Below are positions 155-56,751 of a stretch of DNA of 64,000 bases, in pieces. Position 1 is the stretch's first letter, and each line of letters starts with the position of its first letter. The translations under genes were made by a program, and so were the position numbers. The stretch spans positions 1 to 64,000 of the IMG/VR virus record IMGVR_UViG_3300033075_001674; one strand, given 5' to 3'. The notes below the pieces were generated by a model. It ran no database searches and was not told the origin of the DNA. It worked only from the letters and a program-made list of their open reading frames with translations. This stretch comes from a virus (taxonomy: Duplodnaviria; Caudoviricetes).

Positions 155-553
155 TAACGGGGTCCCCGTGGGGTAGTGGTTGGTGACCCGCACCAGGATG
201 GCATGGGACAACGAAGGGGGGCATAGGTAGCCCTCGCGATCCCAGACCTCCTGCAGCTCCTCCTCCCACCGCTGCAGCTCCGGATGGGTCAGCTCCTTGA
301 GTACCCCACTGCGGATCTGGTACAGGACCTGGGACCACTGGAAAGCGGTCCTCGGCAGGGGGTAGGTCTCGATCTCGGGGTGCATGTCCTGGTACCAGAG
401 GAACATGGAGGCGTCTGCGGCGCTCAGGACCGCCTGCTTGGTGAGTCGGTACAGGATCCGGGACCGATTCAGGCGGCGCCAGGGCACCAGGGAGAGTAGC
501 CAGGACGCAACCAGTAGGGGGAGGGCCACCGCGATAGCGAGCTCGAACATCAT
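155..553 (-). CDS. hypothetical membrane protein (ends at in-frame TTA 157-155; standard-code stop at 110)
   Basis: Start MMFELAIAV overlaps the upstream TGA; N-terminal hydrophobic helix. The residues after the TTA run through a hairpin/promoter region. Confidence 0.6.
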
Positions 554-1206
554 TCTTCCTTTCTGAGCAGGGAATCCAGGGGGTACCCCCCGACAATCCG
601 CTCGATGCAGTGGATCAACAACGCCCTCTCCTCCGAGAGTCCGGGGGCGGAAGACATCGCGTGAGCCTGGGCCTTGTGGACCGGGGCAACCCGGCCTTTC
701 TCCCAGTACAGGAGCCCCCAGAGAGGGGGTAGGTCGGCCACCTGGATGACGTCCGGGGGACAGAAGTAGTACCGGAAGTGGCCCATCCCGAGTCCAGATC
801 TTCGGAAGGGCTTCTTCTTGTCGGCCAGGAAGTCCGCTCTGCTGGCCTTGCACTCCACCAGGTAGGAGTGGGTAGCGCTCTTCCATCCGATGGCGTCGGG
901 CTGCTCCTGGGTGCGCAGCCCCTTGTGATCCACCAGCACCACCGAGCAGCCCCGGTTGTTGCGTAGCCAGAGTCCGGCCCGCTTACAGAGCTCTGCGTGG
1001 GTGGAGGGGGCCGTCTCCTCCCCGGAGGCGTCCAGTCCCTTGTGTGGGACGTGGGGGACCACCCGGGGATCCAGCCCCCGGGTGCGCCCCCCCGCCTCCT
1101 CCCGTAGCAGGTCTGGCCTCAGGACGAAGCAGGAGTGCTCTACCGGCTTGCCGTCTTCGAGACGGTGGGGCTGCCCGCAGAAGGCGGGGGCAATAACCGC
1201 CGACAC
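550..1206 (-). CDS. PD-(D/E)XK-fold protein, MmcB-like phage family
   Basis: Motif EQPDAIGW...LVECKASRADFLADKKKPFR...GMG.FRYY.CP...LP..WGLL. Confidence 0.65.
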   Translation of the reverse strand: MSAVIAPAFCGQPHRLEDGKPVEHSCFVLRPDLLREEAGGRTRGLDPRVVPHVPHKGLDASGEETAPSTHAELCKRAGLWLRNNRGCSVVLVDHKGLRTQEQPDAIGWKSATHSYLVECKASRADFLADKKKPFRRSGLGMGHFRYYFCPPDVIQVADLPPLWGLLYWEKGRVAPVHKAQAHAMSSAPGLSEERALLIHCIERIVGGYPLDSLLRKEE

Positions 1207-1673
1207 AGGCAGACCACCGGGGACCAGGCCCCGTCGATCTTGGCGATGCCGAATAGCTTGGGGGTATCACCCCCCTGGCTGAGCAGGGCGATCCCGAGGC
1301 GGCGATCCACCCGAACAGCCACCCCCTTCTCCGCTCCGCAGCGGTAGTCCTTGCCTTCCAGGGGGTCCTGGATGTTCGGACCGTCTTCCGTGTGCCCGAA
1401 GAACACCCCGTTGCTGCGCAGGGTATGGATCTGGTCCACCCCGATGGCCTCCGGAAGCAGCCGGCGGAGGTTGGCCATGTCTTGCTCCGCCTCCTTCGCG
1501 TAGTTGCGGGAGCTCTCCATGACCCTGGAAGGGTCCACCTGGCGCTGCAGGGACTGGGTGAGGTTGAGGAGCATCTCCTGCACCGCAGCGGTCACCTTGA
1601 ACCGCTCGGGGGAGGGGGCGGATACGCAGTGAGCATCGGTGTCGGGGGGGCAAACAGCGGCAGGGTCGGTCAT
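1194..1673 (-). CDS. hypothetical protein (ends at TTA 1196-1194; standard-code TAG at 1140)
   Basis: ATG 1673 is coupled to the upstream TGA; coding-like up to the TTA, which lies 10 nt inside the next gene. Confidence 0.55.
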
Positions 1674-1921
1674 GTGATCCTGTAGAAGCTGGTGAGGGCC
1701 AGCGGGAAGGGTTGGGGGTTTGGGCGTCCATCCTCCAGGAAGCACCAGACGGTGCCTCTGGATACAGAGTGAACCCGTACGGTATACGGGTACTCCAGAA
1801 GACGATAGCTCCTGCCCACGGTTGGCAAGGGCAGGAGCTGGGGAATGCGCGGTGCCATCCGCGCGTAGCAGTTGGGGTCCGCCTTCAAGGAAGAGGGCGG
1901 CATCCCTGTGTTCGCTCGCAT
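1670..1921 (-). CDS. hypothetical protein
   Basis: Small ORF tightly packed in the - strand operon; start uncertain. Confidence 0.45.
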   Translation of the reverse strand: MRANTGMPPSSLKADPNCYARMAPRIPQLLPLPTVGRSYRLLEYPYTVRVHSVSRGTVWCFLEDGRPNPQPFPLALTSFYRIT

Positions 1922-2220
1922 CGGAGCACCTTCTCTCGCACCCTGCCGTATCCATCAGGGGAGAGGAGGAGGCAGGTAGCCTCTTCTCCCGGCACCCACG
2001 CCAACGCGGCGTGCATGCTCCACTTTCGGTATGCCCCCTCCCCCTTCGACCATGCCATACAGGCGTCCAGGGGGGTCAGGTAGGGGGGGCTGGCTGGGGC
2101 CGGACGGAGGAAGACAGCTGCCAGCCCCACGATCCCGGCGATGAGGAGCAACCCGAGGAGGGTGAACCTGAAGTCCTGCTCCTGCTTCGACAGACCGTAG
2201 AGGTCGTGCGGGGACTTCAT
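1885..2220 (-). CDS. hypothetical membrane protein
   Basis: MKSPHDL start is coupled to the upstream stop; TM segment FTLLGLLLIAGIVGLAAVFL. Confidence 0.55.
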   Translation of the reverse strand: MKSPHDLYGLSKQEQDFRFTLLGLLLIAGIVGLAAVFLRPAPASPPYLTPLDACMAWSKGEGAYRKWSMHAALAWVPGEEATCLLLSPDGYGRVREKVLRCERTQGCRPLP

Positions 2221-54756: not shown

Positions 54757-55159
54757 ACTTCTCTAGCTCCACACAGGCATGGGGTGCGATCCCCTGGACT
54801 GTGAAACGCTCTACCTCCAGTCTCTGCACCTGGCTGTCGTCCAGCCCGAGTGCCTCGAAGACAGCATCCTCCAGGACCTTGATCCGGTTGGAGATGTCAA
54901 CCGCCTTATGCCGGTGTTCCGCCGCTTTTGGCCAACCCTTGGAGAAGAACAGCTCCGGGGGGCCGAAGAGGTGGATCCGCATGAGAAGGTTGTCATCCCT
55001 CCCCAGCGAAGAGGTGGAGCCCAGGTGCTCCCGCAACACCTCCGCACGCACCTCTACCTTGAACCGCTTGGCCTCTTTCGTGAGAAAGCGACCCTTTCCT
55101 CTGGCCTGGTTCACCCACGCGTGGTTCAGGCTCATCGGGAAGGGGACCACGAGCCTCAT
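54656..55159 (-). CDS. rusA: RusA-family Holliday junction resolvase
   Basis: P.P.S.N..W...; DISNRIKVLED........DDSQV. Confidence 0.8.
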   Translation of the reverse strand: MRLVVPFPMSLNHAWVNQARGKGRFLTKEAKRFKVEVRAEVLREHLGSTSSLGRDDNLLMRIHLFGPPELFFSKGWPKAAEHRHKAVDISNRIKVLEDAVFEALGLDDSQVQRLEVERFTVQGIAPHACVELEKYESTEQNRAEATMRASGPVDPQRRKRGGARKNP

Positions 55160-55770
55160 CGGGGGAGGCCGAAGGGGGAGGAGTTACCCCCCCTGTTCTG
55201 CGTTTGCAGGAGCACGTCCTGCTCCCGGACGGCCACGTATCGGCTCACCGCGCGAAGACCGGCTTCGATCTTGGAGCGGAACGCCTCCAGCAGGTTGAGG
55301 GTCTGCCGCTCGATCTGTGCCCTGTACTCAGCCTCCACCACCGCGGGGTGAGTGATGACCGTGGTGTCGAGCTCCTCCTGGGTCCTGATCTCCTTCGTCT
55401 TGTAGCGGTGGTAGCCGTTCTTCCGGACGAAGGCTTTCGCCGCTGTCAGCGCGTTCTCCGCCCCGAGCAAGGCGTTCTTCGTCACGGCTACCTTTGTGAC
55501 GATGATGCCGTGCCAGTAGAGAAGCTCGTTGTTGATGCGCTCGTACTCCGCGGTGCTGCTCCTGCCGAGCACCTCCAGGTTCACCGTCGGGAACTCTCGC
55601 TCTGCCTTGGTGTTGAGCAGGGAGTCTACGGGGATCCCGCCCTCCACAAGGCGCTCCCGAACGGTGGAGTCCGTGCTCTGGAAGAGATCAATCCGGGCCT
55701 GGATCTCACTGTCGGGGACGAGGGTTCCCTGCAGCCTGGGCAGCCCGGTGCTGCTGTCGTAATCGCTCAT
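55156..55770 (-). CDS. hypothetical helical protein (recombination-mediator-like?)
   Basis: MSDYDSS start coupled to the upstream TGA; coiled coil. Confidence 0.6.
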   Translation of the reverse strand: MSDYDSSTGLPRLQGTLVPDSEIQARIDLFQSTDSTVRERLVEGGIPVDSLLNTKAEREFPTVNLEVLGRSSTAEYERINNELLYWHGIIVTKVAVTKNALLGAENALTAAKAFVRKNGYHRYKTKEIRTQEELDTTVITHPAVVEAEYRAQIERQTLNLLEAFRSKIEAGLRAVSRYVAVREQDVLLQTQNRGGNSSPFGLPR

Positions 55771-56555
55771 TTCTTCCACTCCCACTGGGTTGGGGTCGCA
55801 GGTGAGCCGCTGTCCCTGCACAGGTGCCGGTAGCTGCAGGCCATGCAGGTGCCTGACTTCGCGGCCCCCGGCAGGCTGTAGGGGTTCGTCTCGGCGTTGG
55901 CTTGCAGGATGCGTTGGCGCAGCTTGTCCCAGCGCCCGTGCTCGAACACGTAGGTGAAGGGGACCTTGAACGGGGTCCACTCCCCGGAGGACTTGCTGAC
56001 GTAGGCGAAGTACATCAGGGGTAGGTCCAGGGCGGCCATGTAGACCGTGGCCTGGTCCAGGTGCTCCTCCTTGGGCTCCGTTATCTTCTTCCAGGCGTCG
56101 TGGTCCTCCGTCTTGATCTCCAACCCGATGCGGGCGATAGGCGCCCCCTCATCGTTGTGGAAGGTGAACACCCCGTCGGCCTTGCTGCGCAGGTTGAGCT
56201 CCTTTCCAAGAGAGGTGTCCGCCAGCTCCACCTCCTCCTCGAAGGAGATGTTGCCGGTCTTAGCCCCCACCTTGAGGGCGCTCTGCACCATGTCGTGGAT
56301 GGCGTGGCCCAGGGCGAACCTCTTCTTGAGGTCCACGTTTTTCAGCGAAGGGGGGCCGACCTTGGATGCCCCGTTCAGGGTGAAGCGGACCTTGCGGACG
56401 CAGCTGGCCACCTCGCTGGCGTGAACACCGGGTAGCCTCGCTGGTTTGCTGGCCTCCTGCTCACGCAACCCCTTGTCGTAGAGTGGTTTGGGGTTGAACG
56501 CAGGGTCCTGCAGGATGGCGAAGGCGATTTTTGTGTCTGCGATGGATAGGAACAT
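55767..56555 (-). CDS. Cas4-like PD-(D/E)XK exonuclease
   Basis: HASE...C.R; G..IH; ADG...LEIKT; Q...Y; C..C.Y...C. Confidence 0.8.
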   Translation of the reverse strand: MFLSIADTKIAFAILQDPAFNPKPLYDKGLREQEASKPARLPGVHASEVASCVRKVRFTLNGASKVGPPSLKNVDLKKRFALGHAIHDMVQSALKVGAKTGNISFEEEVELADTSLGKELNLRSKADGVFTFHNDEGAPIARIGLEIKTEDHDAWKKITEPKEEHLDQATVYMAALDLPLMYFAYVSKSSGEWTPFKVPFTYVFEHGRWDKLRQRILQANAETNPYSLPGAAKSGTCMACSYRHLCRDSGSPATPTQWEWKK

Positions 56556-56574
56556 GCTCCCTCAGGAGCATGAG

Positions 56575-56751
56575 TAAGCGGCGCTCGAACGGCTCGCTAC
56601 CGTGGGTGGGACAGCGGGTGACCGGCCCATCCTGGATGACCCGGCTGTTGCACCTCGGGCAGCGAACCTCGGACGCGATCTTCCCCGTGTGCGGGGTGTC
56701 GGTCTCGACGGCGTACTTGCTCATGCCTTCGTTGTCGTTGTGGTTGTGCAT
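56575..56751 (-). CDS. small zinc-ribbon protein (ends at TTA 56577-56575; standard code to 56461)
   Basis: KIAS..CPRC.......CPTHGSEPFERR then TTA, about 20 nt before the next ATG. The start may instead be 56724. Confidence 0.6.

What the first reader, a model, noticed from the sequence alone, without database searches (positions are those of the whole stretch)
155..56577. TTA (UUA) behaves as a stop codon across this phage genome
Seen: I frame-checked by hand the TTA trinucleotides I found inside credible genes. The 14 in-frame ones are 157(-), 1196(-), 6645, 12245, 14035, 16218, 23349, 25775, 26473, 27744, 28990, 37218, 48889 and 56577(-). Each sits where the protein should end: overlapping the next start (TTATG at 6645, like TGATG elsewhere; also 23349 and 1196), just before a terminator hairpin (25775, 28990), at or just before the next promoter or SD (157, 12245, 14035, 16218, 26473, 27744, 37218, 48889), or right after a complete Zn ribbon (56577). 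I found none inside a gene body. Reading TTA as Leu gives junk tails of up to about 250 codons over the next gene (6300, 16038, 27474) and fuses an unrelated protein to the sigma factor. Established: UUA is a stop in NCBI translation table 23 (Thraustochytrium mitochondria). Described phage recodings convert TAG or TGA to sense; I know of no sense-to-stop case in bacteria or phages. Inference: either a release factor recognises UUA, or tRNA-Leu(UAA) is absent or destroyed so ribosomes stall and are released (a bldA-like hungry codon acting as a de facto terminator).
Basis: partly seen in the sequence, partly recalled or inferred. Interest (0 to 1): 0.97.

Follow-up and report, generated by a model that had tools for sequence, protein, structure and literature searches.

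The report
Leucine codon TTA ends phage genes
In this uncultured high-GC phage and its closest relatives the leucine codon TTA never occurs inside genes; it sits exactly where related phages have TGA, TAA or TAG, so it most likely ends translation, a code change published so far only for a few mitochondria and plastids.

Summary
The window is the first 64 kb of a 108-kb IMG/VR phage record (65% GC, about 59% complete).

- **Codon use:** a gene model of 33,645 codons has no internal TTA, where at least 18 are expected. Every other sense codon occurs 33 times or more. About 19% of strong genes (19 of 98) lose their coding signal at an in-frame TTA.
- **Position-blind test:** TTA behaves like TGA, TAA and TAG and unlike any other rare codon.
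- **Orthologs:** in 26 of 33 comparisons the relative's terminator lies within 5 residues of our TTA. Examples are own GDL-TTA-TG against GDI-TGA-TG in two relatives, and offset 0 in six of six relatives at 6645.
- **Reciprocal and conserved cases:** relatives have TTA where this phage has TGA, and three TTA sites are conserved.
- **Tails:** downstream standard stops show no selection.
- **Distribution:** the trait is confined to a subclade found in at least six independent samples. Distant complete relatives use TTA as an internal sense codon, which serves as a negative control.

The mechanism is unresolved. No release-factor gene was found in this phage or in five relatives, and the host is unknown. 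A sister phage carries a non-leucine-type tRNA with anticodon UAA.

Earlier notes of this scan report the same phenomenon in at least 16 other phage genomes. I found no paper describing it.

The parts
155..157 (-). TTA ending a gene of about 132 codons (coding segment 553-161)
   Evidence: Coding signal ends 1 codon before the TTA. L007 ortholog ends with TGA at offset -2. A hairpin-like sequence follows.
1194..1196 (-). TTA ending the gene with coding segment 1607-1227
   Evidence: L007 has TTA at the matching gene end (1126-), followed by a conserved non-coding stretch.
6645..6647 (+). TTA ending gene 6300-6644. It overlaps the next start as TTATG.
   Evidence: GC3 frame switches exactly here. 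L007 and L009 read GDI-TGA-TG where this phage reads GDL-TTA-TG. Offset 0 with TGA in 6 of 6 relatives, including distant G002. The standard-code tail is 155 codons.
12245..12247 (+). TTA ending gene 11573-12244
   Evidence: Homology to L007 runs to residue 233 of 244, and L007 has its own TTA at offset -3 with a 69-codon tail.
14035..14037 (+). TTA separating a 113-aa gene (13696-14034) from the sigma-factor-like gene in the same frame
   Evidence: L007 has TGA and L008 has TAA here. In L008 the two genes are in different frames, so they are separate proteins. The Sigma70_r3 hit lies only in the downstream part.
16218..16220 (+). TTA ending small gene 16038-16217
   Evidence: TCT-TTA-GCT is conserved in L007 (16206) and L008 (15943). 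Standard-code tails are 14, 147 and about 250 codons, so the tails are not conserved.
23349..23351 (+). TTA ending gene 22731-23348
   Evidence: Coding signal ends 2 codons before. L010 ortholog ends with TAG at offset +3.
25775..25777 (+). TTA ending the gene with coding segment 25271-25759; TAG follows 10 codons later
   Evidence: A terminator-like hairpin at 25785-25800 comes directly after.
26473..26475 (+). TTA ending gene 25828-26472. The next ATG is 10 nt downstream, and TACCCT overlaps the TTA.
   Evidence: Orthologs in G001-G004 end with TGA at offset 0, and L010 with TGA at +2.
27744..27746 (+). TTA ending the gene with coding segment 27465-27737
   Evidence: The standard-code tail is 121 codons over the next gene. 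L010 ortholog ends with TGA at offset +4.
28990..28992 (+). TTA ending gene 27772-28989; TAG follows 11 codons later
   Evidence: L010 ortholog ends with TAA at offset +2.
37218..37220 (+). TTA ending the SNF2-type helicase gene 35766-37217 (TTACGATG)
   Evidence: A TGA follows 2 codons later, so this site alone is uninformative.
48889..48891 (+). TTA ending the 1,301-codon gene 44986-48888 (TTAGGATG)
   Evidence: Orthologs in G001 and G002 end with TGA at offset 0.
56575..56577 (-). TTA ending a small zinc-ribbon gene; the next ATG is 3 nt downstream
   Evidence: CPRC...CPTHG, then SEPFERR, then TTA. Orthologs end with TAA at -1 (G001), TAA at +4 (G003) and TAG at +8 (G004).
37886..37959 (+). 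tRNA with anticodon CUA (reads UAG). It has a Trp-like D arm and U73. Possibly related context, not shown to cause TTA termination.
   Evidence: ARAGORN and Rfam. Sister phage G001 has, in a similar neighbourhood, a tRNA with anticodon UAA.
37571..37885 (+). PTH2-like (peptidyl-tRNA hydrolase 2) gene with an in-frame TAG. Its frame runs into the tRNA. Context only.
   Evidence: Pfam PF01981, E = 3e-4, 21.4 bits, below the cut-off of 23. It is 33% identical to the G001 protein P0283, which carries PF01981. The same module occurs in phages L086 and L087, where TTA is an ordinary internal codon.

Best explanation
In this phage subclade UUA is a true termination signal, a fourth stop beside UGA, UAA and the little-used UAG.

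Shown by sequence comparison (my odds about 0.85-0.9): proteins of about one gene in five end at TTA. TTA has been purged from gene interiors. TTA and TGA/TAA replace each other at orthologous gene ends.

Inferred (odds about 0.45-0.5 of the whole): the peptide is released in the infected cell by machinery the phage does not encode itself. The most likely agent is a bacterial RF2-type release factor that accepts U at the second codon position. That could be a variant of the kind proposed for organelles (Ser204 of the SPF motif changed), or normal RF2 acting slowly on a codon that no tRNA competes for. The host would then lack or barely use tRNA-Leu(UAA).

The threefold drop in TAG stops in the same subclade fits a shift of termination toward RF2.

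The confidence given (0.6) is for 'a genuine stop signal read by the termination machinery'. It lies between the odds for the shown part and those for the inferred part.
For: - **Codon use:** 0 internal TTA in 33,645 codons against at least 17.8 expected, with 84 out-of-frame TTA present.
- **Position-blind test:** TTA equals the three stops and differs from every other codon.
- **Share of genes:** 19 of 98 strong genes end their coding signal at TTA.
- **Orthologs:** at 15 sites, 26 of 33 comparisons put the relative's terminator within 5 residues (18 TGA, 4 TAA, 1 TAG, 3 TTA). Offset is 0 in 6/6, 4/4 and 2/2 relatives at 6645, 26473 and 48889. Junctions match codon for codon.
- **Reciprocal cases:** L008 has TTA where this phage, L007 and L009 have TGA/TAA. 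L010 has TTA ending its helicase 68 codons before the standard stop.
- **Tails:** the distance from TTA to the next standard stop equals the distance from a normal stop to the second stop (median 34 v 35, P = 0.67; same in G001). Nothing selects for a back-up stop.
- **Negative controls:** in G004, L086 and L087 (58-61% GC) TTA lies deep inside genes.
- **Independence:** the trait appears in at least six independent samples and assemblies.
- **TAG use:** TAG ends 6-7% of genes in G000 and G001 against 19-21% in G002-G004 (chi-square about 21.6, computed by hand).
- **Precedent:** UUA is read as stop by a bacterial-type RF2 with Ser204 changed (PMC12574857).
Against: - There is no protein-level or ribosome-level evidence.
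- No RF gene was found in this record (59% complete) or in G001-G005. The factor must therefore be the host's, and the host is unknown.
- No bacterium is known to read UUA as stop.
- Sister phage G001 encodes a tRNA with anticodon UAA. It could decode UUA, so the codon may be leaky or have two meanings.
- Three sites (96634, 103405, 107553) have no informative homologs. 103405 lies between a kinase and a phosphatase domain that are fused in T4 Pnk.
- No shared sequence context marks the sites.
Confidence: 0.6

Rival explanations
1. UUA is an unassigned or 'hungry' codon rather than a recognised stop. The host has no usable tRNA-Leu(UAA), or the phage destroys it. Ribosomes stall at UUA, and the chain is freed by rescue or hydrolysis (ArfA/ArfB-type factors, subunit splitting plus a peptidyl-tRNA hydrolase, perhaps the phage PTH2-like enzyme). 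TTA is then a de facto terminator without release-factor recognition.
For: All the comparative evidence for termination fits equally well. TTA is the expected rarest codon at 65% GC. The subclade carries a PTH2-family gene that G002-G004 lack. G001's own UAA-anticodon tRNA suggests host decoding of UUA is insufficient. Ribosome pausing at UUA near the 3' end of a short ORF just before a start codon is documented in Streptomyces (PMC10732093).
Against: Stalls on intact mRNA normally lead to tmRNA tagging and degradation (reviewed in PMC10732093), a poor fate for a fifth of the proteome, including a 1,301-codon gene that ends at TTA 48889. Unassigned codons studied in vitro arrested without release (my recollection of the Micrococcus luteus and Mycoplasma capricolum work, not checked here). 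The PTH2 plus suppressor-tRNA module also occurs in phages where TTA is an ordinary internal codon (L086, L087), so it does not explain the trait.
Confidence: 0.22
2. Dual, regulated meaning. TTA terminates by default but is read through when a phage tRNA(UAA) is expressed, as encoded by G001 and possibly by the missing 41% of this genome. This would give timed C-terminal extensions or fusions.
For: G001 has a 74-nt, non-leucine-type tRNA with anticodon UAA. It lies near the PTH2 gene, where this phage has a CUA tRNA. Three TTA sites join two genes in the same frame: 14035, 96634 and 103405. In G003 and G004 the two halves flanking the G001 109939 and own 67191 sites form one protein.
Against: At 67191 the downstream gene is in another frame, and G002 has TGA there. 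Most tails overlap the next gene out of frame and are not conserved. There is no excess of nearby back-up stops in G000 or G001. No UAA-anticodon tRNA is present in the 108 kb. The G001 tRNA has an odd anticodon arm (C31-C39 mismatch, U37), so its function is uncertain.
Confidence: 0.08
3. TTA is translated as leucine and the tails are made. TTA merely gathers at gene ends because AT-rich start or promoter signals (TAnnnT boxes, Shine-Dalgarno regions) lie there and codon bias removes it elsewhere.
For: Several TTA overlap a TAnnnT box 6-9 nt before the next ATG (for example 26473, 37218, 48889). Where a standard stop follows within 1-10 codons (25775, 28990, 37218) the difference is trivial.
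Against: It does not explain why standard stops are missing at 19 gene ends, and missing only where TTA is present. It does not explain why only the in-frame phase is affected, or why orthologs have a stop at that codon. Tails of up to 274 codons would be unselected and non-conserved. Equally GC-rich relatives keep internal TTA.
Confidence: 0.05
4. Artefact: a sequencing, assembly or modified-base error turns TGA or TAA into TTA.
For: TTA differs from TGA and TAA by one base.
Against: The same pattern, at different and at shared genes, appears in contigs from JGI, ENA, NCBI and Logan assemblies of at least six samples. About 1,000 out-of-frame TGA inside genes are untouched. Read-level checking was not possible.
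Confidence: 0.02

Closest known systems
UUA = stop in organelles: labyrinthulean (Thraustochytrium) mitochondria (NCBI table 23), peDinoflagellate plastids (UUA/UCA), and Marsupiomonadales and Pseudoscourfieldia mitochondria (UUA/UUG) (PMC12574857)
   Same: The same codon changes from Leu to stop in a bacterial-type translation system. It was recognised the same way: the codon is absent inside genes and sits where homologs have stops. It is used alongside standard stops.
   Different: Those are tiny organelle genomes with their own mutated RF2 (Ser204) or RF1a. Here it is a 100-190 kb phage lineage with no release-factor gene of its own, an unknown bacterial host, and a sister phage that carries a UAA-anticodon tRNA.
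Stop-codon recoding in phages (TAG or TGA read as an amino acid: crAss-like, Lak and others; bioRxiv 10.1101/2021.08.26.457843; PMC9523058; PMC11210395)
   Same: A phage lineage whose code differs from the standard code. It carries phage-encoded odd tRNAs (CUA here) and causes systematic mis-annotation by standard gene callers.
   Different: The direction is opposite: sense to stop, not stop to sense. Standard callers produce artificial tails, overlaps and fusions rather than fragmented genes.
Rare UUA codon and bldA tRNA in Streptomyces; UUA near the 3' end of the adpA upstream ORF; proposed UUA-triggered bypassing in phage Hau3 terminase (PMC10732093)
   Same: High-GC setting, extreme rarity of UUA, UUA placed a few nucleotides before a start codon, and ribosome pausing at UUA.
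   Different: There UUA is still leucine and sits inside coding sequence as a regulatory device. Here it is never internal, it replaces stop codons at orthologous positions, and about 19% of genes end with it.
Unassigned codons (AGA/AUA in Micrococcus luteus, CGG in Mycoplasma capricolum, from my own knowledge; UAG in RF1-deleted recoded E. coli, eLife 2018, PMC6207430, as cited in PMC10732093)
   Same: A codon that has vanished from genes under GC pressure and may have no decoder.
   Different: Unassigned codons are simply avoided. They are not used systematically as the terminator of a fifth of the genes.

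Membership tests
UUA-as-stop genetic code (table 23 type) | UUA absent from gene interiors although composition predicts it | tested here: met
   0 in 33,645 codons against at least 17.8 expected; all other sense codons occur 33 times or more.
UUA-as-stop genetic code (table 23 type) | In-frame UUA at the positions where homologs have standard stop codons | tested here: met
   26 of 33 ortholog comparisons fall within 5 residues, many at offset 0.
UUA-as-stop genetic code (table 23 type) | Release factor (RF2 type) with an altered codon-reading motif (Ser204 of SPF changed) | not testable with these tools
   No RF-1-domain gene in this record or in G001-G005. The host is unknown, so its prfB gene cannot be read.
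UUA-as-stop genetic code (table 23 type) | No tRNA that decodes UUA as leucine | tested here: inconclusive
   The only tRNA in the 108 kb has anticodon CUA. Sister phage G001 has a non-leucine-type tRNA with anticodon UAA. Host tRNAs are unknown.
UUA-as-stop genetic code (table 23 type) | Proteins shown to end at UUA (proteomics or ribosome profiling) | not testable with these tools
Phage stop-to-sense recoding (codes 4 and 15) | Standard stop codon frequent inside conserved genes | tested here: not met
   Large genes are open under table 11. The only in-frame TAG seen is in the PTH2-like gene and its leader. No homology crosses the TAG at 31405.
Phage stop-to-sense recoding (codes 4 and 15) | Phage-encoded suppressor tRNA | tested here: met
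   tRNA(CUA) at 37886-37959.
bldA-type UUA regulation | UUA inside coding regions, decoded as Leu when the tRNA is available | tested here: not met
   No internal TTA was found. The sites align to stops, not to leucines.
Unassigned codon | Codon absent from genes and without a cognate tRNA; translation arrests there | tested here: inconclusive
   Absence from gene interiors is met. The tRNA set of the host and the fate of the ribosome cannot be tested.

The most novel reading that the evidence does not exclude
The phage mirrors a still unrecognised bacterial genetic code. Its high-GC host terminates at UGA, UAA and UUA through an RF2 with relaxed second-base reading. The host has lost tRNA-Leu(UAA) and makes little use of UAG/RF1. 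Phages of that host carry tRNAs (CUA, UAA) that selectively override these weak or new stops. This would be the first sense-to-stop reassignment in free-living cells and their viruses.
Probability: 0.35. Interest if true: 0.95.

Novelty: new variant of a known kind. Interest (0 to 1): 0.88.

Why it matters
- **Genetic code:** all described code changes in bacteria and phages turn stops into sense codons or swap amino acids. A leucine codon turned into a stop outside organelles would widen what is thought possible for the code. It would also point to an unrecognised property of a bacterial release system or tRNA set.
- **Annotation:** standard gene callers mis-annotate these phages. Public calls for relatives include an artificial 1,339-aa fusion, overlapping genes and truncated starts. 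Databases therefore hold wrong protein ends for about a fifth of their genes.
- **Testability:** reporters, RF2 assays and C-terminal proteomics could test this directly once a host is found.

Tried and rejected
- **Close relatives in cultured phages:** none. Megablast and two tblastn searches of 50,697 phage records found nothing.
- **Host inference:**
  - No relative was found in 185,579 species genomes.
  - Sample accessions appear in no paper.
  - Cluster names were empty.
  - Endolysin look-alikes give only a weak Acidobacteriota/Pseudomonadota lead.
- **Phage-encoded release factor:** none in this record or in G001-G005. One 11.5-bit match in G003 is noise.
- **PTH2-like gene plus tRNA as the cause:** rejected as sufficient, because L086 and L087 have the module and ordinary internal TTA.
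- **+1 slip from TTA-G to TAG:** only 14 of 38 sites have G after TTA.
- **Shared context or structure around TTA:** none seen.
- **Frameshift fusion into the next gene:** rejected, because relatives have TGATG at the same junctions.
- **Selection for back-up stops:** none.
- **TAG read-through at 31405:** no homology across it.
- **Apparent conservation of tails in tblastn (6645, 14035):** explained by the conserved overlapping or following gene and by stops inside the subject.
- **Other RNA genes:** Rfam found only the tRNA.

Full report
**What the window is.** The window is the first 64 kb of a single 108,475-bp IMG/VR virus record. The record is linear, CheckV rates it about 59% complete, and it is 65% GC. 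It has no relative among 50,697 deposited phage genomes. Metagenomes hold many relatives. The broader family has genomes of 160-195 kb.

**Checking the observation without assuming a code.**
- I trained a codon log-odds score on long high-GC3 ORFs and located where the coding signal ends in each stop-to-stop frame.
- Most genes end 0-16 codons before a standard stop. A distinct set loses its signal far upstream of the stop, and in each case an in-frame TTA sits at that point. In the window these are 157-, 1196-, 6645, 12245, 23349, 25775, 26473, 27744, 28990, 37218 and 48889. Beyond the window they are 66015-, 67191, 76090-, 91118, 96634, 103405 and 107553.
- At 6645 the GC3 frame switches from the upstream gene to the next gene within a few bases of TTATG.
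- I then ran a position-blind test: for every codon that follows 40 strongly coding codons, is the frame still coding afterwards? Loss of coding follows TGA 0.80, TTA 0.80 (8 of 10), TAA 0.78 and TAG 0.75. The next codon, AGA, gives 0.36, and all sense codons give 0.10. The P values are 4e-7 and 6e-3.
- With TTA added to the stop set, 98 strong genes end in TGA 64, TTA 19, TAA 8 and TAG 7.
- Their 33,645 codons hold no internal TTA, although TTG occurs 219 times. The lowest A-ending to G-ending ratio of any synonymous pair (0.081) predicts about 18 (P = 2e-8).
- TTA occurs 84 times out of frame inside genes, and the rarest other sense codon, ATA, occurs 33 times.

**Orthologs.** This is the decisive evidence.
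- Gene 89906-91117 ends in TTATG. Its relative in L004 (59% identical) ends in TGATG at the same place. L006 ends in TGA. L005 has its own in-frame TTA there. The 51-residue standard-code tail has no counterpart.
- At 6645 this phage reads ...GDL-TTA-TG. L007 and L009 read ...GDI-TGA-TG.
- At 14035, L007 has TGA and L008 has TAA. In L008 the two genes are in different frames, so the 113-aa protein and the sigma-like factor are separate.
- At 26473, 27744 and 28990 the L010 orthologs end with TGA, TGA and TAA within 2-4 residues.
- At 67191 (TTA-g-ATG-AAA) the distant, complete genome G002 has TGA-gcacc-ATG-AAA.
- A systematic pass covered 15 of the 21 sites in 33 non-duplicate comparisons. The relative's terminator lies within 5 aligned residues in 26 of them (18 TGA, 4 TAA, 1 TAG, 3 TTA). 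Offset is 0 in 6/6 relatives at 6645, 4/4 at 26473 and 2/2 at 48889.

**Reciprocal and conserved cases.**
- L008 has TTA where this phage (TGA 6285), L007 (TGA) and L009 (TAA) end the large upstream gene. The public call for L008 is therefore an artificial 1,339-aa fusion.
- L010 ends its helicase at a TTA 68 codons before the standard stop, and homology to the next gene starts 7 nt later. The public caller truncated that next gene.
- TTA is conserved at three gene ends: own 16218, L007 16206 and L008 15943; own 1196- and L007 1126-; own 12245 and L007 12058. The downstream standard-code tails there vary from 14 to about 250 codons.

**Are the tails selected?** No. The distance from TTA to the next standard in-frame stop has a median of 34 codons. 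The distance from an ordinary stop to the second in-frame stop has a median of 35 (P = 0.67). With a stricter gene set P = 0.81, and G001 gives P = 0.73.

**Distribution of the trait and negative controls.**
- The sister phage G001 (162 kb, 87% complete, 47% identity in the 611-aa marker) ends 34 of 141 strong genes at TTA. Many of these are TTATG, TTAGATG or TTACATG. Its apparently internal TTA resolve to protein ends or gene junctions when compared with homologs.
- The more distant complete genomes G002-G004 do not share the trait. In G004 the 'TTA-ended' segments lie a median of 251 codons from the next stop, against 15 for controls (P = 1e-10). There TTA is an ordinary internal codon.
- Of 32 IMG/VR loci of the family, only the G001 lineage shows TTA ends.
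- Two unrelated phages of 58-61% GC (L086, L087) also have internal TTA.
- The method therefore discriminates, and GC content alone does not produce the pattern.
- The trait appears in contigs from at least six independent samples and four assembly sources, which excludes an assembly artefact.

**Mechanism: what could and could not be tested.**
- No RF-1-domain protein is encoded in this record or in five related genomes, four of them complete. A release activity would therefore have to be the host's.
- The host could not be identified.
- TAG ends only 6-7% of genes in G000 and G001, against 19-21% in G002-G004. TTA ends seem to have risen as TAG ends fell. This fits a shift of termination toward an RF2-type factor.
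- For organelles, a change of Ser204 in bacterial-type RF2 is the proposed cause of UUA termination. It has arisen twice independently (PMC12574857).
- This phage encodes a tRNA(CUA) directly after a PTH2-like gene that contains an in-frame TAG.
- G001 has a clear PTH2 gene (P0283, PF01981). Nearby it has a 74-nt tRNA with anticodon UAA, a Trp-like D arm, G73 and an unusual anticodon arm.
- I considered the PTH2 enzyme as the releasing activity. The PTH2 plus CUA-tRNA module also occurs in phages that use TTA normally, so it is not sufficient.
- The UAA-anticodon tRNA suggests that UUA is not decoded well by the host. It may act as a suppressor of this new stop. That keeps a leaky or dual meaning possible.
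- No common sequence context marks the sites. G follows TTA in only 14 of 38 cases, so a +1 slip to TAG is not general.

**Remaining weak points.**
- Sites 96634, 103405 and 107553 have no informative homologs.
- 103405 lies exactly between a P-loop kinase domain and a PNK3P phosphatase domain and is followed by GGAG and an in-frame ATG. It could be a split gene or a read-through linker.
- Where a standard stop follows within 1-10 codons (25775, 28990, 37218), the site alone proves nothing.
- All the evidence is comparative. No peptide or ribosome data exist.

**Literature and earlier notes.** Four full-text searches found no report of UUA or TTA as a stop in phages or bacteria. The closest papers are the organelle work (PMC12574857) and the Streptomyces UUA study (PMC10732093). 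Notes of this scan describe the same phenomenon on two other windows of this genome and in at least 16 other phage genomes. They also argue that the PTH2-tRNA pair is a separate, widespread module. I treated these notes as leads and re-tested what I used.

**Verdict.** The reading 'TTA behaves as a stop codon' is supported by orthology in both directions. The molecular mechanism is open.

Noticed in passing
window 37223-37969: The operon consists of a short leader ORF holding both TAG and TTA, a 99-aa ORF, a PTH2-like gene with an in-frame TAG, and a tRNA(CUA). The PTH2-like frame has no stop before it runs through the tRNA gene to TAG 37967.
   Followed up: partly
G001 (L050 9062-9929; genome 69062-69929): The sister phage has an intact PTH2 gene. 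About 470 nt downstream it has a 74-nt tRNA with anticodon UAA, a Trp-like D arm, G73, a C31-C39 mismatch and U37. It is a candidate reader or suppressor of TTA.
   Followed up: partly
whole record and G001 v G002-G004: TAG ends 6-7% of genes in the TTA-using phages, against 19-21% in distant relatives. TTA ends rise as TAG ends fall.
   Followed up: partly
L001/L002 (genome 76896-85953); L004 1-6095: A single giant gene (3,019 aa here, 3,363 aa in L004) carries Rpb2_6, Rpb1_2 and Rpb1_5 domains. It looks like a fused beta/beta-prime-type RNA polymerase. The L004 copy has a faint LAGLIDADG hit, and inteins occur in neighbouring genes.
   Followed up: no
window 6288-6299, 16240-16254, 25813-25827, 26474-26485 and relatives: A recurrent TAnnnT box (TACCTT, TACGCT, TACACT, TACCCT) lies about 6 nt before the ATG, conserved in L007, L008 and L010. 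This suggests leaderless transcripts. In places the TTA overlaps the box.
   Followed up: no
L008 2021-6040; L007 11392-12267; L010 17924-18412: Public gene calls in relatives are wrong because TTA was read as Leu. Examples are a 1,339-aa fusion, a 60-nt gene overlap and a truncated start.
   Followed up: yes
L003 12931-13971 (genome 102931-103971): A polynucleotide kinase (P-loop) part and a PNK3P phosphatase part are in one frame, separated by TTA, GGAG and ATG. This is either a split Pnk or a read-through linker.
   Followed up: partly
genome 66597-69397 v G003 23963-22458 and G004 94318-92891: A protein that is a single polypeptide in G003 and G004 is split into two genes in G000, G001 and G002. 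The junction is TTA in G000 and G001 and TGA in G002.
   Followed up: yes
window 1150-1193 (- strand) and L007 1080-1123 (- strand): A conserved non-coding stretch (ccttctgcgg...ccccaccgtctc) lies directly after the TTA that ends the gene, in both phages. Its function is unknown.
   Followed up: no
window 59468-59492 (- strand): The longest-ORF start (ATG 59492) would put a TTA at codon 5. A GGAG-N5-ATG start at 59468 lies just after it, so the annotated start is probably 8 codons too early.
   Followed up: partly
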